From assembly GCA_049997815.1 (NCBI GenBank), contig JBEKVQ010000002.1, positions 74,483-138,482 of the forward strand: a stretch of 64,000 nt of DNA. The letters are read 5' to 3'. Shown piece after piece: positions 6,155 to 34,449 of the stretch. A program made the position numbers and the translations under genes. The number at the start of each line of letters is the position of its first letter. The stretch's first letter is position 1. This stretch comes from Minisyncoccia bacterium. Lineage in GTDB: Bacteria; Patescibacteriota; Minisyncoccia; UBA6257; GWB1-50-10. The notes below the pieces were generated by a model, which worked only from the letters and a program-made list of their open reading frames with translations, was not told the origin of the DNA and ran no database searches.

Positions 6155-7048
6155 ATGAGTGAATTCCGCAGGGAAAAACCAGAAAGTTTTGCGAGTCCGA
6201 CCCAGCTCCCCAGAACCTCGGCCGAAGCCGCTGAATGGCAAAAGAGCAACTCCGACTGGTGGGAAAAGAATCCGATGCGCTACGATTGGAAAAGTTCCAT
6301 CCCGCATGAGAAGTTCTCGCGGGAGTTTTTCAATGAGATTGACGATCGTTTTTTTTCGGCTGCCCGAGAATATCTGGATCCGCATTCGGCGATTCCTTTC
6401 GACGAATTTATCCACTTCGATTCCCTCAAGGATAAAAGGGTTCTCGAGATAGGCATCGGGAACGGAAGTCACGCCCAATTCCTGGCCCGTTATTCGAAGT
6501 CCTTCACGGGGATAGACATCACGGAGTACGCCGTAATGAGCACTAAGGCAAGGATGAAGGTTTTCGGTTTGAAGGGCGACATCGGGAAGATGGATGCCGA
6601 AAAGTTGGAGTTTGACGACGATAGCTTTGACTTCGTTTGGAGTTGGGGTGTCATTCACCACTCCTCCGATACCACGAAAATTTTGAGAGAGATTCATCGC
6701 GTGCTCCGTCCCGGCGGCAGAGCCGTTATTATGGTTTATCACCGCGGCTGGTGGAACTATTACGTCACGGGAGCATTGGAGGGCCTTGTCTCCGGTAATT
6801 TATTGAAGACGAAGTCGCTCGGCGAATCAGTTCAATTGCATACGGACGGCGCGCTCGCGAGGTACTATTCAAAACGGGACTGGATTAGGGTCACGAGGCC
6901 ACTCTTTGCCGAGGCCTCGGTTTGCGTGCGCGGCCCGAAATCGGATATCATTCCTCTCCCGGCCGGCAAGTTGAAAAATCTCGTCTCCTCTTTCTTGACC
7001 GGGAGATTCGAGATGGGAGGTTTTTTAGTCTCTGGCTTGGTCAAGTAA
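6155..7048 (+). CDS. Class I SAM-dependent methyltransferase
   Basis: VLEIGIGNGSHAQFLA (motif I), FDFVWSWGVIHHSSD, VLRPGGRAVIMVY; paralogue of 33679-34449; ATG 6155 preferred over 6095 because the upstream gene ends at 6141. Confidence 0.8.
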   Translation: MSEFRREKPESFASPTQLPRTSAEAAEWQKSNSDWWEKNPMRYDWKSSIPHEKFSREFFNEIDDRFFSAAREYLDPHSAIPFDEFIHFDSLKDKRVLEIGIGNGSHAQFLARYSKSFTGIDITEYAVMSTKARMKVFGLKGDIGKMDAEKLEFDDDSFDFVWSWGVIHHSSDTTKILREIHRVLRPGGRAVIMVYHRGWWNYYVTGALEGLVSGNLLKTKSLGESVQLHTDGALARYYSKRDWIRVTRPLFAEASVCVRGPKSDIIPLPAGKLKNLVSSFLTGRFEMGGFLVSGLVK

Positions 7049-7072
7049 TTTTCATGTATTTAGCTTTCTCAA

Positions 7073-8275
7073 ATGATGGATAAAAAAACCAAATTATTCA
7101 TTGCGACTCTGGATCCGGCAAAGCAGGGGGGCGTTCCCACCATGGCTAAGTTCGTTTATACCGAAGCAATACGGGATGGCCTTGAACCTTGGCCGATTTA
7201 CAACATAGTCCGGAGTTTCAGGCAGGAAAAAGAACCCGGAACCTTCTCTGGTGTTCTCAATGGATTTAAAGCCGAGGCGCATCAGGAGGTTCTTTACGGA
7301 TTGAATGGCATCGGGATTGACAGAGTACTTCCGGAGTTGGAGTTTTTTAATTATCTCCTGAATTTAAGGGTCTGGAAGAGAATCACAAATGAAGACGGCA
7401 TCTTTTTTGGGGCTTGCGGAGCTAATCTTTGCATGTTGCCATTTGCTTTGCTGAACAAAGATTTTTCTCTTTGGGTGGCAACCACGCTCTATGAGGACAA
7501 AATAGACAGGGTAAGGCGATCGTCCCTGTCCTGGAAGATAAGGGATATCCTTTCCTTGCCGATACTCCTGTGGATGGAAGGGTTCGTTTTCAGGAAAGCC
7601 AAGAGAATCTTGGCCCTCAGTACGTATACGAAAGACTGCATAATGAAAAAATATGGCGTGGACATATCCAAGATCGACGTAGCATTTTACCCGATCGACT
7701 CGAAGTCGTTTTATCCAATCCCTTATGGCAAGAGGAAAAATGACTATATCCTCTTTACCGGCCGCATAACCGATTTGAGAAAGAACGCGGCCATGCTGAT
7801 ATCCGCCTTCGCGAAGATACATGAAGAATTTCCGTGGGTAAAATTGAAATTTGCCGGGGAGATTCCAGGTGAGAAATTATTTCGTCTGGTGAGAGAATTG
7901 GGCGTTTCCGACCATGTAGAGTTCATTGATTTTGTGAGAGAGCGCGAGCTGCTGTCTCTTTACCAAAACGCCCTTCTTTTCGTAATCCCGTCACTTCAGG
8001 AGGGCTTGTGCATCTCCGGCTTGGAGGCCTTGGCTTGCGGCATTCCGGTTATCTCCACGAAATGCGGCGGGCCGGAGGATTTCGTCGTTGACGGCGTAAC
8101 CGGATATTTAGTGAACAACGATGACGAAGGCGATATGGTGGAAAAGATGCGCGCATTTTTAAATATGAAGGAAGAAGGACGGAAATCTCTGTCCATGGGT
8201 GCGGTGGAGCATATTAAGGAGAACAACTCGATCGAGAAAATTTGGCCGAAGTTCAGGGATTGTTTTATACTTTAA
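7073..8275 (+). CDS. Glycosyltransferase family 4 (GT-B, retaining)
   Basis: EGLCISGLEALACGIPVISTKCGGPEDFVVDGVTGYLV (E-x7-E region). Confidence 0.85.
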   Translation: MMDKKTKLFIATLDPAKQGGVPTMAKFVYTEAIRDGLEPWPIYNIVRSFRQEKEPGTFSGVLNGFKAEAHQEVLYGLNGIGIDRVLPELEFFNYLLNLRVWKRITNEDGIFFGACGANLCMLPFALLNKDFSLWVATTLYEDKIDRVRRSSLSWKIRDILSLPILLWMEGFVFRKAKRILALSTYTKDCIMKKYGVDISKIDVAFYPIDSKSFYPIPYGKRKNDYILFTGRITDLRKNAAMLISAFAKIHEEFPWVKLKFAGEIPGEKLFRLVRELGVSDHVEFIDFVRERELLSLYQNALLFVIPSLQEGLCISGLEALACGIPVISTKCGGPEDFVVDGVTGYLVNNDDEGDMVEKMRAFLNMKEEGRKSLSMGAVEHIKENNSIEKIWPKFRDCFIL

Positions 8276-8290
8276 GCAAGGTAAAAATCG

Positions 8291-11234: not shown

Positions 11235-12326
11235 ATGATTAAGAAGAAGTCCAAGAAGAGACCCCAGAAAAGAAAAACCGTACTGATAACCGGCGGGGCC
11301 GGTTTCATCGGCAGTGCCGTAGTCAGGTATCTGCATAATAAATACCCGAAATATCACTTCATTATTCTGGATGCCCTGACCTATGCCGGAGACATACGTA
11401 ACATTCCGGAATCCATCCGGCAAAGCAAGAATTTTGAGTTCCATTACGGGGATATACGCAATCAAAAACTAGTGGAACATCTGGTTTCCCGATCGGATGT
11501 GGTGCTCCATTTTGCCGCGGAAACGCACGTAGCGCGGTCAATTTTTGATGATATTAATTTCTTCGAAACGGATGTAATCGGGACGCAAAGATTGGCGAGT
11601 GCGGTTCTGAGAAACAAGAAAACGATAGATAGGTTCATCCATATTTCCACAAGCGAGGTCTACGGCACCGCCCTTTCGAGGAAGATGAGTGAGAAGCACC
11701 CCTTAAATCCCCAGAGTCCGTACGCTGCCGCCAAGGCCGGAGCCGACCGGCTGGTCTATTCCTACATGGCCACCTATAAGCTTCCCGCGGTTATCGTGCG
11801 TCCCTTCAATATGTTCGGTCCCAACCAGCATTTGGAGAAACTCATCCCTCGTTTTATCACGAGTTGCATCTTGAATGAGCCCCTCACCATCCATGGTAGC
11901 GGAACCAGCCGAAGAGATTTCACTTATGTGGATGATCTGGCCCGGGCGATAGATATGATCCTGCACGCCCCCGCGAAAAAGGTTGTCGGGCAGGTTTTTA
12001 ATGTTGGTTCGGGCCGTGATGTTTCGGTCGGAGAAATAGCTAATCTGATCATAAAGATGATGAATCGCCGCGATAAGAAGGATTCCTCGGTGCGCTACGG
12101 TTCTTCGCCGCTCAATATCGGTGACCGGCCGGGGCAGGTTTTCCGTCATACCGCGGATACGACGAAGATTTTGAAAGCTCTTTCCTGGAAACCGCGCATG
12201 GCCTTCAAAGAAGGTTTAGCTTTGACCATAGACTGGTATATAAAGAACGAGGGATGGTGGAGAGATAAACTGTGGATGCGTCACGTTCCGGTGGAGACCG
12301 AGAAGGGCAAGACGGAGATGCATTAG
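11235..12326 (+). CDS. NDP-hexose 4,6-dehydratase (RmlB/RfbB-like extended SDR)
   Basis: VLITGGAGFIGSAVVRYL, DALTYAGD, HFAAETHVARSI, YAAAKAGADRLV (YxxxK), KLIPRFI. Confidence 0.85.
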   Translation: MIKKKSKKRPQKRKTVLITGGAGFIGSAVVRYLHNKYPKYHFIILDALTYAGDIRNIPESIRQSKNFEFHYGDIRNQKLVEHLVSRSDVVLHFAAETHVARSIFDDINFFETDVIGTQRLASAVLRNKKTIDRFIHISTSEVYGTALSRKMSEKHPLNPQSPYAAAKAGADRLVYSYMATYKLPAVIVRPFNMFGPNQHLEKLIPRFITSCILNEPLTIHGSGTSRRDFTYVDDLARAIDMILHAPAKKVVGQVFNVGSGRDVSVGEIANLIIKMMNRRDKKDSSVRYGSSPLNIGDRPGQVFRHTADTTKILKALSWKPRMAFKEGLALTIDWYIKNEGWWRDKLWMRHVPVETEKGKTEMH

Positions 12327-13582
12327 GTTTTACCGTGAATCCCCCCATAAAAAATAAAAAATTTACTCCGGGTAAGGACTGGATTTGGTACGCTCCGAAT
12401 ACCAAGGATGCTTTCGGCGAAAACGAAACGCGGGCCGTCACTTTTTCCCTAAGGAGCGGCTGGCTGACCTTGGGTGATACCGCCAAAAAATTCGAGGATA
12501 AGGTAGCGGGAATCTTCGGTAAAAAATACGGGCTCTTTGTGAACTCCGGCTCTTCCGCCAATCTTTTGGCCCTCTGCGCTTTAAAATTTCCCAAGGGTTC
12601 CGAAATAATCACGCCGGCGTGCACCTTTAATACGACCGCGGCTCCGATAATCCAAACGGGTCTCGTTCCCGTATTCGTGGACGTGGACCTCGGAACCTAT
12701 CAGATGGATCCGGAAGAGATGAAAAGGGCCCTATCAAAGAGGACTGTGGCGGTCATGGCGCCGCACCTGATTGGTAATTTCATGGACCTGCCGGCCATCC
12801 GAAATTTTTGCGGGAAACACGGACTGATTTTTATTGAAGACAGTTGCGATACGATCGGCGGCAAATTTAACGGTAAGCCGTCGGGCAAGTGGAGCGATCT
12901 CACGACGACGAGTTTTTATGCTTCCCATCTGATAACGACCGGCGGGGCAGGCGGCATGCTCATGACCAACGATAAAAAACTGAGGGAAAGAGCCAGATTA
13001 TTCCGCGATTGGGGGAGAGGAATCTCGCGACATGATGAGGATATCCGTTCCCGGCTTGCCACTTTCAGGATTGACGGAAAGCCATACGACAGCGCCTTCG
13101 TTTTCGTGGAACTGGGATATAACTTCAAGCCCACTGAAATGCAGGCGGCGTTCGGATTGGAGCAGTTGAAGAGATTGGGTGGGTTTATGAATTTGCGCAG
13201 GAAAAATTTCAAGCGGCTTCGCGCGTTCTTCGAGGGTTTCGGGCAATATTTTATCCTGCCGCAAGAGCTGCCCCGAACGAAGGTCAATTGGCTGGCCTTT
13301 CCGCTCACGATAAAGAAAGGTGCCCCGTTTACGAGAAACGATTTGGTCAGATATCTGGAGCGCCATAAAATCCAGACGAGGCCGCTTTTTTCCGGGAACA
13401 TAACGAGGCAGCCGGCATATGCCAAAACAAAATACAGGAAGATCGGTAGTCTGAAGAACTCTCAATTCATAATGGGGCATTCCTTTCTTATCGGCCTGCA
13501 TCACGGGCTGACCGAAGAGATGCTGGAGTACGTCATGGAAGTGTTTTCCGGGTTTTTGGGGAGGATAGATTCGGGCTCTTAG
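12272..13582 (+). CDS. DegT/DnrJ/EryC1-fold PLP/PMP enzyme, RfbH/DdhC-like (NDP-4-keto-6-deoxyhexose 3-dehydrase-like)
   Basis: GWLTLGDTAKKFEDKVAGIFGKKYGLFVNSGSSANLLAL, GGAGGML; length about that of RfbH; start uncertain (ATG 12272 overlaps upstream gene by 55 nt; GTG at 12335 is an alternative). Confidence 0.75.
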   Translation: MDASRSGGDREGQDGDALGFTVNPPIKNKKFTPGKDWIWYAPNTKDAFGENETRAVTFSLRSGWLTLGDTAKKFEDKVAGIFGKKYGLFVNSGSSANLLALCALKFPKGSEIITPACTFNTTAAPIIQTGLVPVFVDVDLGTYQMDPEEMKRALSKRTVAVMAPHLIGNFMDLPAIRNFCGKHGLIFIEDSCDTIGGKFNGKPSGKWSDLTTTSFYASHLITTGGAGGMLMTNDKKLRERARLFRDWGRGISRHDEDIRSRLATFRIDGKPYDSAFVFVELGYNFKPTEMQAAFGLEQLKRLGGFMNLRRKNFKRLRAFFEGFGQYFILPQELPRTKVNWLAFPLTIKKGAPFTRNDLVRYLERHKIQTRPLFSGNITRQPAYAKTKYRKIGSLKNSQFIMGHSFLIGLHHGLTEEMLEYVMEVFSGFLGRIDSGS

Positions 13583-13584
13583 AT

Positions 13585-13610
13585 CTCCGCCTCCTAGGGC
13601 GGTTTTTTAT
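13585..13610 (+). terminator. Rho-independent terminator
   Basis: ccgcc-tccta-gggcgg + tttttt. Confidence 0.6.
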
Positions 13611-13715
13611 GCAGGCACTATATAATTGACAGATTACTGGTTATGTGCTATCCTTCAATCGTTGGTTACTTGACAGCTAAATAGATTTCTCACGAACTTA
13701 CGCCGGAGGTGCCCA

Positions 13716-14273
13716 GTGATAAACATAACTAGTGCGGATTGGACCGGATATGAGAAGAGTATCGCGATTGCGGTCCTGCAAAAGATCGCATACTGCCAGG
13801 ATAAGGGAAAGGGTCTACCGGTCGAGGTCTTCGAGCCGTTCTGTAGGAGTAAGAAGAACATCTCGACCGAGCTTGTGATTTTCAATGAGAAGGGAGAAAT
13901 TTACCTCGTGAAGCGACCGAGCTTGAATGAGAATCCGAGCGAACCATATCCGGAACAGTATCACAGTCCCGGCGCGACACACGACAAGAACGAGACACTG
14001 GAAAATACCCTTGAACGTCTTCGCCGAAGAGAGGGAGTTAATTTTTCCAGCGTTGAGGGGGTCTACCCTCCTCGTGATTCGCGGGACAAAGAACGGGGGA
14101 GATATCTACTCTGTATTTTCATCGCCGATGCAATCGGTGCTCAGACGAATGCCAAGGGACGTTTCTTCAAACAGGAAGATATCCCGTGGAGTGAGCTTGT
14201 AAGCGTCCATCGGGAGATTATCGTTCCCGCCGCGCTTGAGGCATTCAAGAAACGGAACACAAAGCCCCAATGA
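13716..14273 (+). CDS. Nudix-fold hydrolase with degenerate Nudix box, GDP-mannose mannosyl hydrolase (Gmm/WcaH)-like
   Basis: GTG start preceded by GGAGG SD; PGATHDKNETLENTLERLRRREGV resembles the Gmm box GGRVQKDETLEAAFERLTMAELGL (recalled from memory); paralogue of next gene. Confidence 0.6.
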   Translation: MINITSADWTGYEKSIAIAVLQKIAYCQDKGKGLPVEVFEPFCRSKKNISTELVIFNEKGEIYLVKRPSLNENPSEPYPEQYHSPGATHDKNETLENTLERLRRREGVNFSSVEGVYPPRDSRDKERGRYLLCIFIADAIGAQTNAKGRFFKQEDIPWSELVSVHREIIVPAALEAFKKRNTKPQ

Positions 14274-14299
14274 TGAGGGGCGACGCGTATAAAAAGAAG

Positions 14300-14335
14300 G
14301 GAGCAACCGCAATTGTTGCTCCTTTTTCATTTTTA
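14300..14335 (+). terminator. Rho-independent terminator
   Basis: ggagcaac-cgcaatt-gttgctcc + tttttcattttt. Confidence 0.8.
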
Positions 14336-14438
14336 TCCCAGCCGATAATGGATTGACAGTTCATCAGGAATATTTTATTCTCTAAACAGCCCTGAAACAG
14401 TAGAATATCAGCCACATTTAAGAGAAGGAGTGTGATGA

Positions 14439-14984
14439 ATGAAAACCCTGGGAAACTTCCTAGCCAGCTTGGTCGTCAAGATCTTAGTTTGGTTTCTCAA
14501 GTACCTTCCGTCTCTGGAGGAGAGGTTAACCGTTGCTTTATTGAGGAACTTACATTGGCCCCTCAAACAGTCCATATTCTCGGCCATCGTCAATAAAACC
14601 GTCTCCGTTCCGATTGAGCTCGCCGTGTTCGACGAACAGGGCCGGGTTTTGATGTTCTACCGCCGGGACGATGAGTACGACGGTTACCACATACCGGGAA
14701 CCGTTCTCCGGGACAATGAGGACGTTCCGGCGGCAATCCGACGGCTTCTGAAGAGTGAAGTGGTGGGGGGTAGGGTTACTCAGATTACTTCGCTCGGCTG
14801 GATAGAAATTCCAAAGGGAGATAATCCGACCCGTCACGAGATATCGCTTCTCCACTCGTGCGTGCTCGAAGGCCCGTATAACGGAAAAAGCGGGGAGTTC
14901 TTTTTCCCCGACAAACTTCCGTTCACTACTCTCGATCATCACCACACCTTGATCAAAGAAATAATGAAAAGGTCCGGAAGATAG
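14439..14984 (+). CDS. Nudix-fold hydrolase paralogue (Gmm-like, degenerate Nudix box)
   Basis: AAGGAG SD 8 nt upstream; IPGTVLRDNEDVPAAIRRLLKSEVVG; overall collinear similarity to 13716-14273. Confidence 0.6.
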   Translation: MKTLGNFLASLVVKILVWFLKYLPSLEERLTVALLRNLHWPLKQSIFSAIVNKTVSVPIELAVFDEQGRVLMFYRRDDEYDGYHIPGTVLRDNEDVPAAIRRLLKSEVVGGRVTQITSLGWIEIPKGDNPTRHEISLLHSCVLEGPYNGKSGEFFFPDKLPFTTLDHHHTLIKEIMKRSGR

Positions 14985-15007
14985 AGTTCCCATCCCGATT
15001 TCACAAA

Positions 15008-15045: not shown

Positions 15046-15050
15046 TCACT

Positions 15051-15079: not shown

Positions 15080-15094
15080 ACATCTGTTCACTCA

Positions 15095-16036
15095 ATGAAA
15101 AAAATTCTCATCACCGGCGGCACGGGTTTCGTGGGCTCGAACTTCGTCTATAAATTCCTTAAATTGGGAGACGAGGTTCATCTTCTCGTGAGGCCGGAAG
15201 CGAAATTCTGGAGAATCGAGCCGGTAAAGAGCAGGGTTAAGCTGCACAACGTCGATATCACGAATGATAGCGATGTCGACAAATTCATTTCGGAGCTTAG
15301 GCCAGAGATCATTCTTCACTTCGCCACTTACGGCGCGTATCAATGGAAAGAGCAGGACGTAAAAACGACGATAGACACCAATCTCCTCGGCACCGTCAAT
15401 CTGGTGAACGCCTGTAGTAAAATCGGTTTCGAGTGTTTCATAAACACCGGGAGCACTTCCGAATACGGCGAAAAGAAAGCGCCTATGAAGGAGACCGACC
15501 TGCTCGAGCCGAATAATCTATACGGCACGACTAAGGCCGCCGCAACGCTATATTGCCAGTTTCTAGCAAAAAAATTGGACCTCCCGTTAGCCACGATGCG
15601 CCTCTTCTCGCCCTACGGATATTTCGAAGGCGAGGGTCGCTTGATGCCCGCGCTCGTGCGGGCCGCGCTCTACGGAGAAAAATTCGAAGCCCCATCCCCG
15701 TCGATCGTGAGGGACTTTATCTTCATTGAAGACGTGGTAAGCGCGTATTTGAAAGCTATAGGGAAAATCGGTAGCATTAAGGGGCAGATTTTAAACATCG
15801 CATCCGGCGAAGAACATTCCATCGGGGAAGCTGTGGAAATCGTGGAAAGAATTTCCGGCGCAAAGATCGAGGCGAATTACGGAAAAATTCCGCCGAGGCA
15901 GACGGAACCGAAAAGATGGGTGGCCGACATAACGAAAGCGAAGACGTTGCTTGATTGGAAACCCGAGAATTCTTTATTTGACGGCCTGTCAAAATTCATC
16001 GCGTGGGCAAAAAATAACGAAGTATTCATAAAATAA
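15095..16036 (+). CDS. NAD-dependent epimerase/dehydratase (extended SDR)
   Basis: MKKILITGGTGFVGSNFV, YGTTKAAATLYCQ (YxxxK). Confidence 0.85.
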   Translation: MKKILITGGTGFVGSNFVYKFLKLGDEVHLLVRPEAKFWRIEPVKSRVKLHNVDITNDSDVDKFISELRPEIILHFATYGAYQWKEQDVKTTIDTNLLGTVNLVNACSKIGFECFINTGSTSEYGEKKAPMKETDLLEPNNLYGTTKAAATLYCQFLAKKLDLPLATMRLFSPYGYFEGEGRLMPALVRAALYGEKFEAPSPSIVRDFIFIEDVVSAYLKAIGKIGSIKGQILNIASGEEHSIGEAVEIVERISGAKIEANYGKIPPRQTEPKRWVADITKAKTLLDWKPENSLFDGLSKFIAWAKNNEVFIK

Positions 16037-16857: not shown

Positions 16858-16858
16858 C

Positions 16859-23825: not shown

Positions 23826-25340
23826 TTATTTAGCCAGGTGATTTCTTTTCAGGCTAATTGCTGATTCCTCCTTAATCTTGTCTACGGTTGGTTCGCCGAA
23901 TTTTCTGCGGATCATTTCAAGATGAGCAGGGTTAGTGAAGCAGGTTTTCCACGCCCAATCTCTGAACTGGAGAACCTGCTGGCCGGTTAAATATCGGGTC
24001 GGCAAGGGCAGGGTATTTTCGGAATGTTGCGAGTAGCCATCCCAACTTTTTGGAAGCGGCCATCCCTCCTTCACGGCTAGATTGTAGAGCTGTGAACCGG
24101 GATAGGCCATTGCCGAATAAAAATTGGAATATTCGCAATTCAATTCCATCGCCTGAGAGAGCGTTTGTTGCATCGAGTCGTAATCGTCCTCAGGGAGTCC
24201 GAAGATGTAATTAGCAGCGACGTAAATTCCGCCGTCTCTGACTTGTTTTATCACGGAAAAAACATCGCTGTCCTTGAATTCCCCTTTCCTTGCATCATTA
24301 CGCACTCGTTCGCTTGCCGCCTCGATTCCGAAGCAAAGCCAACGGAAGCCGGCCCTTCTTAACTTTTCGATAATTTCGTCTCCGGAGATCGTGTCAACGC
24401 GGGTATAGGCCCAGATATTCAGGTCATATCCCCGTTCGATAATCAAATCGCAGATGCCGTTCACGTGTTTCATGTTCAATACAAACATTTCATCCGCAAA
24501 CTTGATGTTCTTTATTCCGAACTTCTCGACGAGAAAACCTATCTGGTCCACAACGAGCTTTGGGTTCCAAAACCGGTAACTGTTTACTTCGGATTTGATT
24601 CCCATCGCGCCTTCCCCGCTTTTGAAAGGAGCTTGAATACAGCAGAAAGAACAGTGATACGGACAACCCAGGGTCGTGTATATTGAGGCATAAGGTTGCC
24701 GTATCAAATCTCCGTAAGAATGCCATAGGTTCGTCCTGTAGAGGTTCATCGGTAAAAGATCCCAGGCGATCCCATTCATTTCTTCGTTGAGATTTTTTAC
24801 GAGAGGAGCCGGTGAGGTCGTTACCAATTCATCGTCTGATTTGTATATCAGGCCCCTGACTTTCCGGTAATCAGTTTCCCTTACCTTTATCGCTTCAGTC
24901 AGGTCGAGTAAGGTGTAGGGTCCTTCCCCCGTGCAAACAAAGTCAACGCACTCCTCGTTCAACGTTTTTTCCGGAAGAGCGGCCACATGTCCTCCGATCA
25001 TGATGATCTTCAGATTCGGATCGGCTTCTTTGATCGCCCTTGCAATCCTGCCGGCCGAAGGCATTACCTGCGTTGATGCGGAAGGATTATGGCCATAGCA
25101 GACTATTGCAACGAGTTCGGGATTGATATCGGCAACTCGACTTGCAACTTCTTTCGGATCAAGACGTTCGACATATGCATCGATGATGGAGGAAGAAATA
25201 TTTTTCTTTCTCAAGAAGGTTGCTAAAAGTCCTGCCCAAATCGGATTTTCGCAGGCACTTTGTCGGTTTCCCAATTCTTGATAGATTTCAACGTTGTCTC
25301 CCGGAGCTATCATTACCACATCTAATCCCTTGGTCTTCAT
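23826..25340 (-). CDS. Cobalamin (B12)-binding radical SAM enzyme (class B radical SAM, probable methyltransferase)
   Basis: N-terminal B12-binding-like region (VVMIAPGDN...PELVAIVCYGHNPSAS); CPYHCSFC CxxxCxxC cluster. Confidence 0.8.
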   Translation of the reverse strand: MKTKGLDVVMIAPGDNVEIYQELGNRQSACENPIWAGLLATFLRKKNISSSIIDAYVERLDPKEVASRVADINPELVAIVCYGHNPSASTQVMPSAGRIARAIKEADPNLKIIMIGGHVAALPEKTLNEECVDFVCTGEGPYTLLDLTEAIKVRETDYRKVRGLIYKSDDELVTTSPAPLVKNLNEEMNGIAWDLLPMNLYRTNLWHSYGDLIRQPYASIYTTLGCPYHCSFCCIQAPFKSGEGAMGIKSEVNSYRFWNPKLVVDQIGFLVEKFGIKNIKFADEMFVLNMKHVNGICDLIIERGYDLNIWAYTRVDTISGDEIIEKLRRAGFRWLCFGIEAASERVRNDARKGEFKDSDVFSVIKQVRDGGIYVAANYIFGLPEDDYDSMQQTLSQAMELNCEYSNFYSAMAYPGSQLYNLAVKEGWPLPKSWDGYSQHSENTLPLPTRYLTGQQVLQFRDWAWKTCFTNPAHLEMIRRKFGEPTVDKIKEESAISLKRNHLAK

Positions 25341-25533: not shown

Positions 25534-26472
25534 ATGGCAAAAATATTAGTTACAGGTGGCGCGGGGTATATCGGTTCCGTTCTCGTTCCGGAGCTTTTGC
25601 GGGCGGAACATGAAGTTACGGTTATCGATAATTTTCTCTATGGTCAAACCCCGTTTTTGGAAGTATGCCACATTAAACATTTCACGATTGTGAGGGGAGA
25701 TGCTCGTGATAGAGAACTGATTGCGAAGCATATTGTCGGGAAAGATTATATTATTCCGCTCGCGTGCCTCGTAGGAGCGCCGGTTTGCGACCGGGACCCT
25801 ATTACCGCGAGGACCACGAATGTGGGGGCCGTGGAACTAATCTTGAAATTAAGGAAGCCCGGGCAAAGGATTATCTTCCCGAATACGAACAGTGGATACG
25901 GAACAGGCCGAGGCGACACGACGTTTTGCACGGAAGAGACCCCGCTTAACCCGATATCCCTGTATGGCCGGCTTAAGGTGGAGGCGGAGCGCAAGATCCT
26001 CGAAGCGGGAGAGGCGATAACGTTCCGTTTGGCAACCGTCTGTGGCATGAGCCCGCGTATGCGTTTGGATCTTCTCGTTAATGACTTCGTATACCGCGCC
26101 GTGAACGACCGATTCATCGTTCTTTTTGAAGCCCACTTCAAGCGGAACTTCATCCATGTGCGGGATGTCGCTCGCGCATTTGTGCATGCGATAGACAACT
26201 TCGAGGCCATGAAAAATAATGCCTACAATGTGGGTCTGTCGGACGCGAATCTGAGCAAGTGGGAACTCTGTGAAGAGATAAAAAAGCACGTTCCCGACTT
26301 CGTGTGCATTTCCTCCGGGGTGGGTAAAGATGTTGATCAAAGAAACTACATCGTCAGCAATGCAAAAATAGAACTGACTGGATTCAAGCCCATCACCCCT
26401 CTCGCGGACGCCATACCCGAACTCATCAAGGGGTTCACGATCGTCAAGAGGAATATGTACGGAAACGTCTAG
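25534..26472 (+). CDS. NAD-dependent epimerase/dehydratase (extended SDR)
   Basis: MAKILVTGGAGYIGSVLV; YGRLKVEAE. Confidence 0.8.
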   Translation: MAKILVTGGAGYIGSVLVPELLRAEHEVTVIDNFLYGQTPFLEVCHIKHFTIVRGDARDRELIAKHIVGKDYIIPLACLVGAPVCDRDPITARTTNVGAVELILKLRKPGQRIIFPNTNSGYGTGRGDTTFCTEETPLNPISLYGRLKVEAERKILEAGEAITFRLATVCGMSPRMRLDLLVNDFVYRAVNDRFIVLFEAHFKRNFIHVRDVARAFVHAIDNFEAMKNNAYNVGLSDANLSKWELCEEIKKHVPDFVCISSGVGKDVDQRNYIVSNAKIELTGFKPITPLADAIPELIKGFTIVKRNMYGNV

Positions 26473-30084: not shown

Positions 30085-31284
30085 ATGACTTCTGTGAAGA
30101 TACTGCACATAAATCTGGTTTATTTGCCGGCCTTCCGTTACGGCGGGCCCATTAGAAGCGTCCATAATTTGAATAAGTGGCTCGTAAAAAGGGGAGCCGA
30201 CGTGACGGTTTATACGACGAATATCGACGGGCCGGTAGAGTTGGATGTTCCGACCGGCGTGCCGGTTTCGATAGATGGCGTCAGAGTTTTTTACTTTCCG
30301 GTACATTTTTTCAGGCATTGGTTCTATTCTTCGGATTTCAGGAAAGCGCTCGCGATGACCGCGAAAGATTTTGATATCATCCACATCACTTCGGTCTTCA
30401 CGGCCGCCTCGACGCTCGGGGCGCACTATGCGAAGAAGCGGGACATTCCCTACGTCATCTCACCCAAAGGAAGCCTGATGAAGACTCCCCTAGGAAGCGG
30501 TTCGCTGAAGAAAAAGTTGTATTTATCCCTGATCGAAAGAAAGAACCTTGAAGAAGCCGATGCCATCCACTTCACCGTTCCGGTTGAAAAGGAGGAATAT
30601 TTGAGGCAAGGGTTGTCATTTAAAGACAGTTTCGTCATTCCGAATGGCCTGGACCCGGATGAATTCAAAGAGGAAATCCCTCCGGGTTTTTTCCGCAAAA
30701 AGTTCGGCATCTCGGCCGATAAGAAGATCGTTCTCTTTCTTGGGCGCTTGAATTGGATAAAGGGACTGGATACGCTTTTGCCGAGCTTCAAAAGAGTAGC
30801 TGACAGGATTCCCGCGGCCATTCTGGTTCTTGCTGGCGGTGATGACAAAAAATACAAGAAAACAGTCGAAGACATGGTCGAGAAACACAAACTTGGCGAC
30901 AAAGTCGTTTTTACTGGTATGATTATAGACGGGGATAAGCAAGCCGCCTTGAGGGATAGCGACGTTTTCGTCATGCCCTCCTATTCGGAGAGCTTCGGAA
31001 TGTCGGCGCTTGAGGCGATGTACTCCCGCTTGCCGGTCGTCGTGACTGAGGGAGTAAGTTTGGCTCCGGTAGTAGAAAAGTATTCCGCTGGCCTTGTCGT
31101 CACCAAAAATGAGGATAAGCTAAGTGAAGCGGTCATTAATATCCTGTCCAACCCCGATTCGGCGAAAGCGATGGGAGAGCGCGGACGCAAAATAGCGGAA
31201 AGTAATTTCCTTATGCCCGTGATCGCCGAAAATTTCCTGGCTGCCTACGGAAGAGTCATAGAAACTCACAGGGGCAAAAATTAA
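30085..31284 (+). CDS. Glycosyltransferase family 4
   Basis: ESFGMSALEAMYSRLPVVVTEGVSLAPVV. Confidence 0.85.
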   Translation: MTSVKILHINLVYLPAFRYGGPIRSVHNLNKWLVKRGADVTVYTTNIDGPVELDVPTGVPVSIDGVRVFYFPVHFFRHWFYSSDFRKALAMTAKDFDIIHITSVFTAASTLGAHYAKKRDIPYVISPKGSLMKTPLGSGSLKKKLYLSLIERKNLEEADAIHFTVPVEKEEYLRQGLSFKDSFVIPNGLDPDEFKEEIPPGFFRKKFGISADKKIVLFLGRLNWIKGLDTLLPSFKRVADRIPAAILVLAGGDDKKYKKTVEDMVEKHKLGDKVVFTGMIIDGDKQAALRDSDVFVMPSYSESFGMSALEAMYSRLPVVVTEGVSLAPVVEKYSAGLVVTKNEDKLSEAVINILSNPDSAKAMGERGRKIAESNFLMPVIAENFLAAYGRVIETHRGKN

Positions 31285-31294
31285 AAAACAAACC

Positions 31295-32155
31295 ATGTCT
31301 TATTCCGAAACCAAGCAAAAAATAAAGCGTTCCGTCTATCAAAGCAGCTTGAGGTCTCTCATGAGGCGATTGGGTTTGATCCGGTTATTTTTCGCGATTC
31401 CGAACCAGTTTTCGAACTTGGAGCACCGGATCGCCTTTTCTCTTCACAAGAATTGTCTCGCCGGCATTGAAATTTCCGGTTACAGAGCGATATTTACCGC
31501 TCCGACCTTCATTGAATTCAGAAGGACTGTCGCGATGGGGAGTGAGAAGAAAGTCATAGAGCCATTTTTGGATAAAATAAAAGAGGGAGACACGGTTTTC
31601 GATATCGGCGCGAGCGTTGGCCTTTACACGGTTTTTATCGCGAAGAAGGTTGGAGGCGATGGACGAGTAGTCTCCTTCGAGCCGGAACGCCAGTCAAGGG
31701 AAAGATTAATGGGGAATATCCGCTTGAATTCCCTTGGGAACGTCCGGGTCGTAAGCGATGCTCTTGGACGGGATGAATCGAGGCAGTTTCTGAGGCCCGA
31801 CAAGAATTTCGCCTCAGGCGCCAACATTATTTTTGATGCTAAGGAAAATCCCGGAGCAGCTGGCGGCGAAGAGGTATCCGTATTTTCCGGAGATACGCTC
31901 ATAAAAAAAGGAGTGCTTCCGGTCCCGAACGCCATTAAGATAGATGTGGAGGGGATGGAAGATGACGTTCTTACGGGCCTCAAAGAGACGATCCGGAGGC
32001 CGGAGTGCCGTACAGTTCTCTGTGAAATCCATTTTTCCAATCTTGAAAAGAGAGGCAGGCCCGAAGCGCCGAAGCGCATTGAAGGGATGCTCAAAGATTC
32101 GGGATTCAACCAATTGTTCTGGCTCGACCGTTCCCACATCTTGGCCGTTAAATAG
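31295..32155 (+). CDS. FkbM-family methyltransferase
   Basis: VFDIGASVGLYTVFIAKKVGGDGRVVSFEP; IKIDVEGMEDDVLTGL. Confidence 0.75.
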   Translation: MSYSETKQKIKRSVYQSSLRSLMRRLGLIRLFFAIPNQFSNLEHRIAFSLHKNCLAGIEISGYRAIFTAPTFIEFRRTVAMGSEKKVIEPFLDKIKEGDTVFDIGASVGLYTVFIAKKVGGDGRVVSFEPERQSRERLMGNIRLNSLGNVRVVSDALGRDESRQFLRPDKNFASGANIIFDAKENPGAAGGEEVSVFSGDTLIKKGVLPVPNAIKIDVEGMEDDVLTGLKETIRRPECRTVLCEIHFSNLEKRGRPEAPKRIEGMLKDSGFNQLFWLDRSHILAVK

Positions 32156-32164
32156 AAGAAAACA

Positions 32165-33004: not shown

Positions 33005-33007
33005 GAT

Positions 33008-33667
33008 ATGGATAAAAAATCGGAGAAACTTCATTTGGGTTGCGGCCTGATCACCCCTTCAAGCTGGATTAATGTGGATGGTTCGTGGAATGCCCTGTTG
33101 GCAAAGCACCCACTGGTCAAAAAAATATTAATGGCCCTTCATCTTGCGCCGGCCCGCCTATTCGATATTCCCTGGAGCGCTGAAGTCGTGTTCCATGACG
33201 TTCGCCGCCCTCTGCCCTTTGAAGACGATTCCATGGAAGCGGTTTATGCTTCTCATTTATTGGAGCATGTTTATCTGGAGGAGGCGAAGAAGCTTCTCGG
33301 GGAGTGTTTTCGAGTATTGAAACCGGGCGGCGTATTGAGGATCATGGTGCCGGATTTGAGAGGAATCGTTTCACAATACAATCTTCGCCAGCCCACCAAT
33401 GAATCAAAGGCCGATAGAATGATAAAAAGTCTGGATTTTTGCGATACCGTACCGCCGAGCGGAAACATTTTTTATAGGTTGTATTCTTATCTAAAAGATT
33501 TGCACGCTCATAGATGGATGTACGATAGCGATTCTCTAATTTTTTATTTGAGGGGGGCGGGGTTCAACGATGTTATGGAGATGCCTCTTCATGGTTCAAA
33601 GATACAGAACATCGAAGAGGTGGAGTTGAATGAGGGGCTCTGTGTGGAGGGCGTAAAAGCGGGCTGA
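33008..33667 (+). CDS. Class I SAM-dependent methyltransferase
   Basis: VLKPGGVLRIMVPD. Confidence 0.7.
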   Translation: MDKKSEKLHLGCGLITPSSWINVDGSWNALLAKHPLVKKILMALHLAPARLFDIPWSAEVVFHDVRRPLPFEDDSMEAVYASHLLEHVYLEEAKKLLGECFRVLKPGGVLRIMVPDLRGIVSQYNLRQPTNESKADRMIKSLDFCDTVPPSGNIFYRLYSYLKDLHAHRWMYDSDSLIFYLRGAGFNDVMEMPLHGSKIQNIEEVELNEGLCVEGVKAG

Positions 33668-33678
33668 GGGTTTCTAAA

Positions 33679-34449
33679 ATGGATAATAAGGAGTCGGTAA
33701 AAAGGTTTTGGAATAAAAAACCGTGCGGAACGTTCGGGGTTCTTGAAAACAAACCAAATCTTGGATATTTCGAATCCATCAGAAAGCGGCGTTATACCCT
33801 CGAACCGTTCATAAAAGTAATAGTGCCTTTTGCTGAACTTCGGAATAAGAAAGTTCTTGAAATCGGGTGCGGCGTGGGGACCGACGGGGTTGAATTCATC
33901 CGTTCCGGAGCGGATTATGTCGGCGTTGATGCCTCCGATATTTCGGTTGGCCTTGCGAAGAGAAACGTCGCCCTCCTTGGCTTTGATTCCGAGAGAGTGA
34001 GTTTAGCGGATGCGGAACGGTTGCCGTTCCCGGATAATGAATTTGATTTCATATATTCCTGGGGCGTGCTTCACCATACTCCCGATATGGAGAAAGCCGT
34101 GAGCGAGGTTCGGAGAGTTCTGAAACCGGGCGGGAATTTCTGCATAATGCTCTATAATCGTTTTTCCTTAGTTGGTTTTCAGCTCTACATTCTCTACGGC
34201 TTGCTTCATCTGAATCCATTCGTGTCTTTCGAGAGGCTCTTCTCGGAGCATCACGAGAGCCCGGGTACTAAGGCCCTTACCGATGCGGAGGCCTTGAAAC
34301 TCTTCGGGGATTTTAAGAATGTTTCCGTTAAAAATATCGTTACCCCTTACGATTTAAGAATTACGAGAAATATTCACTGGCCTCTATGGTTCGGGAAAGC
34401 GATTCCGCAGAGCTTGGGATTTTTCAAAGTGATTCAAGGGAACAGATAA
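33679..34449 (+). CDS. Class I SAM-dependent methyltransferase (paralogue of 6155-7048)
   Basis: VLEIGCGVGTDGV; FDFIYSWGVLHHTPD; VLKPGGNFCIMLY. Confidence 0.8.
   Translation: MDNKESVKRFWNKKPCGTFGVLENKPNLGYFESIRKRRYTLEPFIKVIVPFAELRNKKVLEIGCGVGTDGVEFIRSGADYVGVDASDISVGLAKRNVALLGFDSERVSLADAERLPFPDNEFDFIYSWGVLHHTPDMEKAVSEVRRVLKPGGNFCIMLYNRFSLVGFQLYILYGLLHLNPFVSFERLFSEHHESPGTKALTDAEALKLFGDFKNVSVKNIVTPYDLRITRNIHWPLWFGKAIPQSLGFFKVIQGNR

What the first reader, a model, noticed from the sequence alone, without database searches (positions are those of the whole stretch)
6155..34449. Unusual density of methyltransferases: seven SAM methyltransferases plus a B12-radical-SAM enzyme
There are class I methyltransferases at 6155, 8291, 22738, 33008 and 33679, with 6155 and 33679 clear paralogues. 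There are FkbM-type methyltransferases at 19035 and 31295, and a cobalamin radical SAM enzyme at 23826. In ABC-transporter-dependent glycan synthesis, non-reducing-end methylation is the chain-terminating signal read by the Wzt exporter (WbdD paradigm). Additional methyltransferases imply heavily O- and/or C-methylated sugars. The FkbM pair and the class B radical SAM enzyme suggest both O-methyl and unactivated-carbon methylation.
Basis: partly seen in the sequence, partly recalled or inferred. Interest (0 to 1): 0.55.

Follow-up and report, generated by a model that had tools for sequence, protein, structure and literature searches.

The report
Methyltransferase-rich surface-glycan locus in a CPR bacterium
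A tiny-genome (CPR/Patescibacteria) peat bacterium carries a large sugar-polymer gene cluster with seven methyl-adding enzymes and a vitamin-B12 radical enzyme; most sit beside sugar-joining enzymes, two belong to a widespread uncharacterised sugar-building cassette, and none is tied to the ABC exporter as first proposed.

Summary
Six of the seven SAM methyltransferases pass Pfam or NCBIfam. The seventh (22738) has no Pfam hit but has motif I and a confident class I methyltransferase fold. The gene at 23826 has B12-binding and radical-SAM domains with an invariant CxxxCxxC. The density, 7 in 28 kb, far exceeds 69 comparator glycan loci (0-2 each), though one other Patescibacteria locus matches it.

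The host is a CPR bacterium (Minisyncoccia), so O-antigen is unlikely. The methyltransferase block lies in a flippase-type locus with a phosphoglycosyltransferase, two Wzx and a Wzy_C protein. Wzm/Wzt lie about 17 kb away, past redox genes. Their locus holds no methyltransferase and no WbdD-like protein. Wzt has no carbohydrate-binding domain and scores best against TagH.

Six methyltransferases each adjoin a glycosyltransferase gene and probably O-methylate the repeat unit (inferred). The other two enzymes sit in a conserved cassette at 20078-26472: RmlC-like epimerase, transketolase, the 22738 methyltransferase, the radical SAM enzyme and a dehydrogenase close to PDB 6vo6 (which I recall as Cj1427). 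Natural fusions join the 22738 family to transketolase, E1-alpha and class B radical SAM domains. That points to modification of a nucleotide 4-keto sugar. Methylation by the radical SAM enzyme is plausible but unproven.

The parts
4160..5533 (+). Wzy_C-family membrane protein (polymerase, ligase or O-oligosaccharyltransferase type)
   Evidence: PF04932 at 58.8 bits, cutoff 31.7
5530..6141 (+). TPR protein immediately upstream of the first methyltransferase
   Evidence: PF14559
6155..7048 (+). Class I SAM methyltransferase MT11_a. Member of a large family of about 305 aa that is common in CPR
   Evidence: Methyltransf_11 at 82.8 bits. More than 4400 homologues at E<=1e-20, named hits mostly CPR. 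Homologues adjoin GT4 genes in L091 and L092
7073..8275 (+). GT4 glycosyltransferase
   Evidence: PF00534 at 119 bits
8291..9019 (+). Class I SAM methyltransferase MT23
   Evidence: Methyltransf_23 at 66.5 bits. Motif I 'ILDLGCGNGGF'. 41% homologue in L091
9016..11198 (+). Two glycosyltransferases (GT4 at 9016-10164; Glyco_trans_1_2 at 10149-11198)
11235..12326 (+). NDP-hexose 4,6-dehydratase-like SDR
   Evidence: TIGR01181 at 322 bits, cutoff 365
12272..13582 (+). E1/RfbH-like NDP-4-keto-6-deoxyhexose 3-dehydratase. His replaces the Schiff-base Lys, and the E1 Cys-rich Fe-S motif is absent
   Evidence: 3bcx at E 1.5e-87 over the full length, alignment read directly. RfbH NF011936 at 397.5 bits, cutoff 423
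13716..14984 (+). Two NUDIX / GDP-mannose-mannosyl-hydrolase-like genes (13716-14273 and 14439-14984)
15095..16036 (+). Extended SDR (epimerase or reductase)
16036..17794 (+). Split transketolase-type ThDP enzyme (N subunit 16036-16857; pyr/C subunit about 16790-17794)
   Evidence: Homologues flank the radical SAM gene in 16 of 78 loci
17796..18938 (+). GT2 glycosyltransferase
19035..20081 (+). FkbM-family methyltransferase with a C-terminal extension of about 150 aa
   Evidence: PF05050 at 62.3 bits; TIGR01444 at 60.5 bits
20078..20584 (+). RmlC-like sugar 3,5-epimerase; first gene of the conserved cassette
   Evidence: PF00908 at 150 bits. Found with MT316 homologues in 25 of 32 loci at median 56% identity
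20759..22567 (+). Fused transketolase-type ThDP enzyme
   Evidence: This domain is naturally fused to MT316 in other genomes
22738..23688 (+). MT316: divergent class I SAM methyltransferase of a family with no Pfam model
23826..25340 (-). Class B (B12-binding) radical SAM enzyme of an uncharacterised clade
25534..26472 (+). Extended SDR close to PDB 6vo6 (recalled as Cj1427); conserved partner of the radical SAM enzyme
   Evidence: 6vo6 at E 2.5e-112. Present in 65 of 78 radical SAM loci at median 59% identity
26602..28071 (+). Wzx/MOP flippase inside the methyltransferase block
   Evidence: PF01943 at 133.8 bits
28068..30011 (-). SDR + GFO/IDH/MocA fusion oxidoreductase
30085..31284 (+). GT4 glycosyltransferase
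31295..32155 (+). FkbM-family methyltransferase
   Evidence: PF05050 at 58.6 bits; TIGR01444 at 95.9 bits
32165..33004 (+). GT2 glycosyltransferase
33008..33667 (+). Short class I SAM methyltransferase (partial Pfam match; N-terminal 'LHLGCG' motif)
   Evidence: The single-sequence AF2 model was uninformative
33679..34449 (+). Class I SAM methyltransferase MT11_b
   Evidence: Methyltransf_11 at 82.2 bits. Best solved relative is D-glucose O-methyltransferase 6uv6
34510..38864 (+). ADH_zinc+GFO oxidoreductase, C5-epimerase-like protein and GT4
38832..44066 (-). AsnB-type amidotransferase, polyprenyl-phosphate glycosylphosphotransferase (40761-42086) and a second Wzx flippase (42408-44066)
48655..53372 (-). 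Separate ABC-transporter glycan locus: 1093-aa GT2+GT4 protein, Wzt (239 aa, no carbohydrate-binding domain) and Wzm. It contains no methyltransferase

Best explanation
The range is the tailoring-rich core of a flippase-type cell-surface glycan locus in a CPR (Minisyncoccia) bacterium. The locus is initiated by a phosphoglycosyltransferase and carries Wzx and Wzy_C genes. The eight enzymes fall into two groups.

Group A is 6155, 8291, 19035, 31295, 33008 and 33679. Each lies directly beside a glycosyltransferase gene, with gaps mostly of 25 nt or less or overlapping. These enzymes most likely O-methylate (possibly N-methylate) individual sugars of the lipid-linked repeat unit on the cytoplasmic face, in step with glycosyl transfer. 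This is inferred from context.

Group B is the methyltransferase at 22738 (MT316) and the B12-radical SAM enzyme at 23826. They are part of a conserved nucleotide-sugar cassette at 20078-26472. A dehydrogenase close to PDB 6vo6 makes an NDP-4-keto sugar. An RmlC-like epimerase acts next to the keto group. A transketolase-type ThDP enzyme adds a two-carbon branch. MT316 and the radical SAM enzyme then decorate that intermediate. The radical SAM step is most likely methylation of an unactivated carbon. All cassette steps are inferred.

A second upstream module (11235-17794) has a 4,6-dehydratase, an E1/ColD-like 3-dehydratase, an SDR and a split transketolase. It probably makes a yersiniose-like 3,6-dideoxy C-branched sugar.

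The Wzm/Wzt exporter belongs to a different, methyltransferase-free locus, so methylation here is decoration rather than a WbdD-type termination signal.
For: Domains and fold of all eight enzymes.

Locus type: Wzy_C, two Wzx and a phosphoglycosyltransferase above the TIGR03025 cutoff.

Host: NCBI names the identical proteins '[Minisyncoccia bacterium]'. All named homologues of the TrxB-like protein, at 64-82% identity, are CPR.

Pairing of methyltransferase and glycosyltransferase genes is read from the coordinates. It recurs for MT11_a homologues in L091 and L092.

Sugar O-methyltransferases are among the best solved relatives of the 33679 protein.

Cassette evidence:
- The SDR at 25534 accompanies the radical SAM gene in 65 of 78 genomes from many phyla, at median 59% identity.
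- That SDR matches 6vo6 at E 2.5e-112. I recall 6vo6 as Cj1427, and Cj1427's function is given in PMC10680097.
- Other recurring neighbours are an HddA-like kinase, an HddC/ManC-like nucleotidyltransferase, an Fcl-like SDR, a DegT-family protein that scores best against RfbH, and E1 alpha/beta or split transketolase.
- MT316 homologues co-locate with RmlC-like genes in 25 of 32 loci, with transketolase in 14 of 32 and with a class B radical SAM gene in 10 of 32 (examples).
- Natural fusions exist: transketolase+MT316, MT316+E1-alpha and B12-radical SAM+MT316.

Upstream module: an E1-like 3-dehydratase with the His-for-Lys substitution. ThDP branching of NDP-4-keto-3,6-dideoxyhexose is an established scheme (PMC9306805).
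Against: No substrate or product is known for any of these proteins. No methyltransferase reaches an NCBIfam equivalog cutoff.

The radical SAM enzyme scores highest against HpnJ and BchE, which are not known methylases. Its best solved relative is the dehydratase AprD4.

None of the window's seven methyltransferases was found next to this radical SAM clade in 78 other genomes. The fused radical SAM-MT316 protein belongs to another class B clade, at 22% identity.

The window lacks a sugar-1-phosphate nucleotidyltransferase and the GmhA/HddA/HddC genes, so the nucleotide sugar is undefined. The RmlC-like protein is no closer to GDP-heptose epimerases than to dTDP RmlC.

The transketolase-type enzymes are not YerE-type carboligases. 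The fold of the 33008 protein was not verified. The identification of 6vo6 as Cj1427 rests on memory. The depositor's name is only 'putative sugar-nucleotide epimerase/dehydratase'.
Confidence: 0.6

Rival explanations
1. The methyltransferases serve an ABC-transporter-dependent polysaccharide, and non-reducing-end methylation is the chain-terminating signal recognised by Wzt, as in the WbdD/O9a paradigm.
For: Wzm and Wzt and a large multidomain GT2+GT4 polymerase-like protein are present in the window. A TPR protein sits next to the methyltransferase at 6155 and could in principle act as a ruler or scaffold.
Against: Wzt is 239 aa with only an ABC_tran domain and no carbohydrate-binding module. 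It scores best against TagH and mycobacterial galactan Wzt. No methyltransferase lies within or next to the ABC locus; the nearest is about 17 kb away across redox genes. No methyltransferase has a kinase domain or WbdD architecture. The methyltransferase block has its own Wzx, Wzy_C and phosphoglycosyltransferase. The host is CPR.
Confidence: 0.06
2. The B12-radical SAM enzyme is not a methylase. Together with its conserved SDR partner it performs radical deoxygenation, as AprD4/AprD3 do, or a ring contraction or rearrangement of a sugar, as proposed for HpnJ and shown for OxsB. Only the seven SAM enzymes would then methylate.
For: The best solved relative is AprD4 (E 2.1e-11). The best NCBIfam scores are to HpnJ and BchE rather than to known methylases such as PhpK, HpnR, KedN5 and TsrM. 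A strictly conserved adjacent SDR (65 of 78 loci) echoes the AprD4/AprD3 pairing, which I cite from memory. A review lists several class B enzymes with non-methylating chemistry (PMC12931638).
Against: All these similarities are remote and far below family cutoffs. QCMT, a true C-methylase, scores the same as AprD4 (3.5e-11; identity of 9CCB). From memory, AprD4 does not use cobalamin, whereas this protein has a well-scoring, conserved B12-binding domain. The partner SDR is far closer to PDB 6vo6, which I recall as a sugar C4-dehydrogenase that creates rather than removes the keto group. Most characterised class B enzymes are methylases (PMC12931638).
Confidence: 0.3
3. Some or most of the methyltransferases act on non-glycan substrates such as lipid anchors, proteins including pilins or S-layer proteins, or a glycosylated small molecule. 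Their clustering with glycosyltransferases would then reflect co-regulation and not sugar methylation.
For: Class I methyltransferase families Methyltransf_11/23/25 are substrate-promiscuous. The top NCBIfam hits are lipid and quinone methyltransferases at sub-threshold scores. MT11_a belongs to a very large, highly conserved family (52-79% identity), which could indicate a housekeeping-like role.
Against: All seven lie inside tight co-directional runs of glycosyltransferase and nucleotide-sugar genes. MT11_a homologues adjoin GT4 genes in unrelated genomes. MT316 is fused to sugar-pathway ThDP enzymes. No PKS, NRPS or lipid-synthesis genes are in the window.
Confidence: 0.1
4. The clustering is an assembly or binning artefact, or chance.
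For: The sequence comes from a metagenome.
Against: The same gene order occurs on a 395-kb JGI contig and on an independent Logan assembly. Enrichment is significant. GC content is uniform across the block.
Confidence: 0.02

Closest known systems
E. coli O9a WbdD / Wzt-CBM chain-termination system (from general knowledge)
   Same: SAM-dependent methylation occurs in a glycan locus, and Wzm/Wzt genes are present in the same window.
   Different: There is no kinase-methyltransferase-coiled-coil protein. Wzt lacks the C-terminal carbohydrate-binding module. The methyltransferases sit in a separate Wzx/Wzy_C/phosphoglycosyltransferase locus. The host is a CPR bacterium.
Multi-methyltransferase glycan and glycolipid loci such as mycobacterial glycopeptidolipid (rmt2/3/4, fmt) and the methylmannose polysaccharide cluster (from memory, not tested here)
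   Same: Several class I methyltransferases are interleaved with glycosyltransferases, with one methyltransferase per sugar position and O-methylation coupled to chain assembly.
   Different: There is no detectable orthology. Here the locus also holds FkbM-type enzymes, a family with no Pfam model and a class B radical SAM enzyme, and the phylum is different.
Class B radical SAM sugar C-methyltransferases of antibiotic pathways (GenK, GenD1, Fms7, MoeK5; listed in PMC12931638)
   Same: An N-terminal B12-binding domain plus a radical SAM core, and a sugar context.
   Different: No family-level match to any characterised class B enzyme (GenK, GenD1, Fms7 and MoeK5 were not individually scored). 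The enzyme sits in a surface-glycan locus and not an antibiotic cluster. Its conserved partners are a 6vo6-like dehydrogenase, ThDP enzymes and a DegT-family protein across many phyla.
C. jejuni capsular GDP-heptose modification pathway (Cj1427 C4-dehydrogenase, C3/C5-epimerases, C3-dehydratase, C4-reductases; PMC10680097)
   Same: The SDR at 25534 matches 6vo6 at E 2.5e-112. An RmlC-like epimerase is present. Related loci carry HddA-, HddC-, GmhA- and GmhB-like genes and an Fcl-like reductase.
   Different: The window has no GDP-heptose synthesis genes. As far as I recall, C. jejuni has no transketolase, MT316 or B12-radical SAM step. The nucleotide and sugar here are undefined.
YerE/YerF-type ThDP-dependent acyl-branched sugar synthesis (yersiniose, erwiniose, caryophyllose; PMC9306805)
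   Same: A 4,6-dehydratase and an E1-like 3-dehydratase would give NDP-4-keto-3,6-dideoxyhexose. A ThDP enzyme, a reductase and SAM methyltransferases lie in the same cluster.
   Different: The ThDP enzymes are of the transketolase/E1 type and not YerE type. The 3-dehydratase lacks E1's Fe-S cysteines. An extra radical SAM step is present.
NovW/NovU (RmlC-like epimerase plus C-methyltransferase at C5 of dTDP-4-keto-6-deoxyglucose; from memory)
   Same: An RmlC-like protein is tightly paired with a SAM methyltransferase (25 of 32 MT316 loci). NovW appears among the solved relatives of the 20078 protein.
   Different: From memory, NovU is of the TylC3 type, with which MT316 shares no recognised family model. 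The C- versus O-methylation specificity of MT316 is unknown.

Membership tests
Class I SAM-dependent methyltransferase | Curated family model above threshold | tested here: met
   6155, 8291 and 33679 clearly pass. 33008 passes Methyltransf_11 on a partial match. 22738 fails all Pfam models and is covered by the fold row.
Class I SAM-dependent methyltransferase | Rossmann-like methyltransferase fold (for 22738) | tested here: met
   AF2 pLDDT 93.2, pTM 0.92. 825 PDB matches at E<=1e-3; all 50 listed are methyltransferases or close methyltransferase-fold relatives.
Class I SAM-dependent methyltransferase | Glycine-rich motif I (E/DxGxGxG) followed by an acidic residue at the end of beta-2 | tested here: met
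   VLEIGIGNG (6155) and VLEIGCGVG (33679). ILDLGCGNG...GLDIS (8291). VYEFGCGPG...GFDW (22738). LHLGCG...NVD (33008).
Class I SAM-dependent methyltransferase | Complete fold for 33008 | tested here: inconclusive
   The single-sequence AF2 model reached only pLDDT 36.8.
FkbM-family methyltransferase | PF05050 / TIGR01444 above cutoff | tested here: met
   Both genes pass.
Class B (cobalamin-dependent) radical SAM | N-terminal B12-binding domain, radical SAM core and CxxxCxxC | tested here: met
Class B (cobalamin-dependent) radical SAM | Membership of a characterised subfamily (HpnJ, BchE, PhpK, HpnR, KedN5, AprD4, TsrM, QCMT and others) | tested here: not met
   All scores are far below the curated cutoffs. 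The best is HpnJ at 150 bits against 577.
Class B (cobalamin-dependent) radical SAM | Methyl transfer to carbon; cobalamin actually bound | not testable with these tools
   Needs biochemistry.
WbdD-type chain terminator with Wzt-CBM export | Bifunctional kinase-methyltransferase with a coiled coil, encoded with Wzm/Wzt | tested here: not met
   No kinase domain occurs in any methyltransferase, and no methyltransferase lies in the ABC locus.
WbdD-type chain terminator with Wzt-CBM export | C-terminal carbohydrate-binding module on Wzt | tested here: not met
   Wzt is 239 aa with ABC_tran only.
Wzx/Wzy-dependent glycan assembly | Initiating polyprenyl-phosphate glycosylphosphotransferase | tested here: met
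   TIGR03025 at 323 bits, cutoff 295.5.
Wzx/Wzy-dependent glycan assembly | MOP/Wzx flippase | tested here: met
   Two PF01943 proteins.
Wzx/Wzy-dependent glycan assembly | Wzy polymerase and a chain-length regulator | tested here: inconclusive
   A Wzy_C protein is present, but the family also includes ligases and O-oligosaccharyltransferases. No Wzz/PCP-type protein was found.
YerE/YerF acyl-branched sugar pathway | YerE-type (acetolactate-synthase-like) ThDP carboligase | tested here: not met
   The ThDP enzymes are of the transketolase type.
YerE/YerF acyl-branched sugar pathway | 4,6-dehydratase and 3-dehydratase supplying an NDP-4-keto-3,6-dideoxyhexose | tested here: met
   Both are slightly below the equivalog cutoffs. 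The His-for-Lys substitution is present.
C. jejuni-type GDP-heptose modification | Cj1427-like C4-dehydrogenase | tested here: met
   6vo6 at E 2.5e-112. That 6vo6 is Cj1427 is from memory.
C. jejuni-type GDP-heptose modification | GDP-heptose supply genes (GmhA, HddA, GmhB, HddC) | tested here: not met
   Absent from the window. Present in related loci.

The most novel reading that the evidence does not exclude
The block at 20078-26472 represents an undescribed nucleotide-sugar pathway that is spread by horizontal transfer across many phyla: Cyanobacteria, Nitrospirota, Acidobacteriota, Chloroflexota, Planctomycetota, Desulfovibrionales, a Coxiella endosymbiont and CPR. In it, a 4-keto sugar made by a 6vo6-like dehydrogenase is C-branched by a transketolase- or E1-type ThDP enzyme. 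It is then modified by a methyltransferase family with no Pfam model (at least 619 cluster representatives) and by a cobalamin-dependent radical SAM enzyme. As far as I could find, this would be the first B12-radical SAM step in making a cell-surface polysaccharide sugar. It occurs in a genome-reduced CPR bacterium that presumably has to scavenge cobalamin.
Probability: 0.35. Interest if true: 0.7.

Novelty: new variant of a known kind. Interest (0 to 1): 0.5.

Why it matters
CPR/Patescibacteria are episymbionts with minimal genomes, and to my knowledge their surface chemistry is largely uncharacterised. Devoting roughly 40 kb to a heavily tailored glycan suggests that surface decoration is central to their lifestyle, for example host attachment or evasion of phage and predators.

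The radical SAM enzyme and its 6vo6-like partner, the ThDP enzymes and the MT316 family form a widespread, uncharacterised toolkit for branched or methylated sugars. That makes it a tractable target for enzymology and a possible source of new glycan epitopes.

For annotation, the result warns against reading every methyltransferase near Wzm/Wzt genes as a WbdD-type terminator.

Tried and rejected
- A metagenome scan with the 33008 protein found no relatives.
- Single-sequence AF2 of the 33008 protein failed at pLDDT 36.8 and was not used.
- A PDB sequence search with the first FkbM protein returned only spurious designed-repeat hits.
- Literature searches found no description of the cassette. 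The queries combined radical SAM or cobalamin with O-antigen, yersiniose, virenose, transketolase and GHMP kinase, and Patescibacteria with glycan methylation.
- The Cj1427 structure paper (PMC7509852) is not held, and a search for '6VO6' found nothing relevant. The link between 6vo6 and Cj1427 therefore stays a recollection.
- Rfam found no cobalamin riboswitch or other RNA, and there are no tRNAs.
- The GC profile gives no clear sign of recent transfer of the block.
- I considered that the 12272 protein was an aminotransferase. I rejected this because His replaces the catalytic Lys and the best match is the E1 dehydratase.
- I considered that the B12-radical SAM+MT316 fusion directly links the window's radical SAM clade to MT316. 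I weakened this because the fused radical SAM domain is only 22% identical.
- I tried to assign the nucleotide (GDP or dTDP) from the RmlC-like protein. The result was indecisive.

Full report
**1. Observation**

A mechanical ORF list and Pfam/NCBIfam scans of essentially every long ORF in the window confirm genes at all eight stated positions.

- 6155-7048, 8291-9019 and 33679-34449 are unambiguous class I SAM methyltransferases of the Methyltransf_11/23/25 type.
- 33008-33667 matches only the C-terminal half of Methyltransf_11. It has an N-terminal 'LHLGCG' motif I, and MitM aligns over residues 8-110.
- 19035-20081 and 31295-32155 pass PF05050 and TIGR01444, the FkbM models.
- 22738-23688 has no Pfam hit. 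It contains 'VYEFGCGPGHN'. Some of its homologues carry PF13649 or PF08242. An AF2 model built on 35 sequences (pLDDT 93.2, pTM 0.92) gives 825 PDB matches at E<=1e-3, and all 50 listed are methyltransferases or close methyltransferase-fold relatives. It is a divergent class I methyltransferase, called MT316 below.
- 23826-25340(-) has B12-binding and Radical_SAM domains. The motif C226-x3-C230-x2-C233 is conserved in at least 97% of 52 aligned homologues.

The proteins at 6155 and 33679 are 32% identical (E 2e-28), so they share a subfamily but are not close paralogues. The two FkbM proteins are not detectably similar to each other.

**2. Is the density more than chance?**

Inside 6155-34449, 8 of 27 genes are methyltransferases or the radical SAM enzyme. 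In the rest of the window the count is 0 of 26 (Fisher p=0.004).

A phmmer scan with the seven window methyltransferases over 69 comparator glycan loci of at least 15 kb found 0 hits in 50 loci, 1 in 16 and 2 in 3. The window has 7. The control is biased because the queries are the window's own proteins.

Pfam-annotated contexts show that another Patescibacteria locus (L091) has 4 methyltransferases in 15 kb. The density is therefore high but not unique.

The arrangement is reproduced on a 395-kb JGI contig and on an independent Logan assembly.

**3. Host**

NCBI names the identical proteins 'MAG... [Minisyncoccia bacterium]'. Minisyncoccia is a class of the phylum Minisyncoccota.

The one housekeeping-type gene in the window is the TrxB-like gene at 45659-46579. 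Every named homologue among its best hits (64-82% identity) is CPR: Minisyncoccia, Patescibacteria group, Jorgensenbacteria, Parcubacteria, Liptonbacteria and Microgenomates.

The radical SAM gene has no near-identical copy in the GTDB species representatives. The best is 61%.

**4.

The block from 4160 to 44066 is one glycan locus. It contains:
- a Wzy_C protein (4160);
- seven glycosyltransferases;
- a Wzx flippase in the middle (26602);
- oxidoreductases and a C5-epimerase-like protein;
- an AsnB-type amidotransferase;
- a polyprenyl-phosphate glycosylphosphotransferase above the TIGR03025 cutoff (40761);
- a second Wzx (42408).

DsbA, TrxB-like, cupredoxin and unknown genes follow. Only then comes a separate locus with a 1093-aa GT2+GT4 protein, Wzt and Wzm.

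Wzt is 239 aa with only an ABC_tran domain. Its best NCBIfam scores are to teichoic-acid exporter TagH and mycobacterial galactan Wzt, all below cutoff. No methyltransferase and no kinase-methyltransferase protein lie in or beside this locus.

The WbdD/Wzt-CBM termination model is therefore not supported. The weaker claim, that the glycan is heavily methylated, remains the best reading.

**5. Two functional groups**

Group A is 6155, 8291, 19035, 31295, 33008 and 33679. Each lies directly beside a glycosyltransferase gene, with small gaps or overlaps.
- MT-GT4-MT-GT4-GT at 6155-11198.
- GT2-FkbM at 17796-20081.
- GT4-FkbM-GT2-MT-MT at 30085-34449.

The 6155 protein belongs to a very large family of about 305 aa, with more than 4400 hits at E<=1e-20 and named hits mostly from CPR. 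Its homologues adjoin GT4 genes in L091 and L092.

The best solved relatives of the 33679 protein include a D-glucose O-methyltransferase (6uv6) and 3bus, which I recall as RebM.

The inference is that these enzymes methylate individual sugars of the lipid-linked repeat unit. No step in this inference is demonstrated.

Group B is MT316 and the radical SAM enzyme. The radical SAM enzyme has orthologue-grade relatives (43-61% identity) in 80 genomes from many phyla.

Its most conserved neighbour is the SDR at 25534-26472, present in 65 of 78 loci at median 59% identity. That SDR matches PDB 6vo6 at E 2.5e-112. [quoted passage not shown] The function of Cj1427 is described in PMC10680097.

Other recurrent neighbours are:
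- an HddA-like GHMP kinase;
- an HddC/ManC-like nucleotidyltransferase;
- a GDP-fucose-synthase-like SDR;
- a DegT-family protein that scores best against RfbH;
- either E1 alpha/beta or a split transketolase.

The MT316 family has 619 cluster representatives at E<=1e-30. Members co-locate with an RmlC-like gene in 25 of 32 loci, with transketolase in 14 of 32 and with a class B radical SAM gene in 10 of 32 (examples).

Natural fusions join MT316 to transketolase pyr+C domains, to E1-alpha, and in one case to a B12-radical SAM protein. That fused radical SAM domain belongs to a different clade, at 22% identity.

In the window, the RmlC-like gene, transketolase, MT316, the radical SAM gene and the 6vo6-like SDR are contiguous at 20078-26472.

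The inferred mechanism has four steps:
- C4 oxidation of an NDP-sugar;
- epimerisation next to the keto group;
- ThDP-dependent two-carbon branching;
- methylation by MT316, O- or C-directed, and by the radical SAM enzyme.

**6. A second sugar module**

The gene at 11235 is a dTDP-glucose-4,6-dehydratase-like SDR (322 bits, cutoff 365).

The gene at 12272 is closest to the Yersinia E1 3-dehydratase (3bcx, E 1.5e-87). It has His in place of the Schiff-base Lys but lacks E1's Cys-rich Fe-S motif. I read this as ColD-like chemistry.

Together with the SDR at 15095 and the split transketolase at 16036/16790, this parallels the YerE/YerF scheme for acyl-branched 3,6-dideoxy sugars (PMC9306805). The difference is that the ThDP enzyme is of the transketolase type.

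**7. What the radical SAM enzyme does**

It is a bona fide class B enzyme by domain content. It reaches no characterised subfamily:
- HpnJ scores 150 bits against a cutoff of 577, and BchE 147 against 481.
- PhpK scores 89 bits, QCMT-type 83 and HpnR 64.
- The nearest solved structures are AprD4 (2.1e-11) and QCMT 9CCB (3.5e-11) (identity of 9CCB from PMC12931638).

Methylation of an unactivated carbon is the commonest class B chemistry, and I rate it most likely, at roughly 0.5-0.6. AprD4-like dehydration or an HpnJ/OxsB-like rearrangement cannot be excluded.

**8. Comparison, novelty and verdict**

The finding is an ordinary kind of thing, a tailoring-rich glycan locus, in an unusual host and with an unusual enzyme combination.

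It fails the membership tests for the WbdD/Wzt-CBM system. It fits a flippase-type pathway, although the Wzy_C function is ambiguous and no chain-length regulator was found.

I found no paper describing the cassette of radical SAM enzyme, 6vo6-like SDR, ThDP enzyme and MT316. Absence from the held library is weak evidence.

I rate the locus a new variant of a known kind, with interest 0.5. The most novel reading not excluded is a widespread, undescribed B12-radical SAM step in making a surface-glycan sugar. I give it probability about 0.35 and interest 0.7 if true.

Noticed in passing
whole window; 45659-46579: The window comes from a CPR/Patescibacteria (Minisyncoccia) MAG from a metagenome (JGI 3300038425, 395-kb contig). 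Roughly 55 kb of the 64 kb is glycan biosynthesis, which is a large share for a lineage that, from general knowledge, has a genome of about 1 Mb.
   Followed up: yes
12272-13582: This E1/RfbH-like 3-dehydratase keeps the His-for-Lys substitution. It lacks the Cys-rich [2Fe-2S] motif of Yersinia E1 (DWGRDCYCAPGCDNTCKK becomes DWGRGISRHDEDIRSR). It is an E1-length protein that probably works like ColD.
   Followed up: partly
16036-17794 and 20759-22567: One glycan locus holds two separate transketolase-type ThDP enzymes, one split and one fused. This suggests two C-branching steps or two branched sugars.
   Followed up: partly
P0302, P0306, P0314 (MT316-family proteins of 610-642 aa): Several MT316 homologues carry an N-terminal domain of about 300 aa with no Pfam match and no similarity to any window protein. 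It contains an 'HSD...H'-like motif that might indicate a metal-dependent oxygenase.
   Followed up: no
43914-48671: A small redox island separates the two glycan loci. It holds a DsbA-like thioredoxin, a 214-aa unknown, a TrxB/AhpF-like flavoprotein, a cupredoxin-like protein and a 507-aa protein with no family match.
   Followed up: no
55998-57080(-), 58194-59492, 59889-61688: The ABC-transporter locus has its own non-methyl tailoring enzymes: an SGNH/AlgX-like and a GDSL-like protein, which may be O-acetyltransferases or esterases, and a carbamoyltransferase with Carbam_trans_N and Carbam_trans_C domains.
   Followed up: no
61697-62761(-): A GT2 related to AglJ and dolichyl-phosphate hexose transferases. 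It is a likely polyprenyl-phosphate hexose synthase and hints at extracytoplasmic glycosylation.
   Followed up: no
416-3760: A 1114-aa protein whose only recognisable domain is a peptidoglycan-binding PG_binding_1 domain lies directly upstream of the glycan locus.
   Followed up: no
13716-14273 and 14439-14984: Two adjacent NUDIX / GDP-mannose-mannosyl-hydrolase-like genes sit inside the nucleotide-sugar module. NUDIX genes recur next to MT316 homologues in L088 and L090.
   Followed up: partly
L076 (Coxiella endosymbiont of Amblyomma nuttalli, NZ_CP064834.1 828846-850354): A reduced tick endosymbiont genome retains the SDR, radical SAM gene, GHMP kinase and second SDR at 46% identity. This is another genome-reduced lineage that keeps the cassette.
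   Followed up: no
window 23689-25533: No cobalamin riboswitch, or any other Rfam family, lies near the B12-dependent gene or anywhere in the window. No cobalamin transport gene is in the window either.
   Followed up: partly
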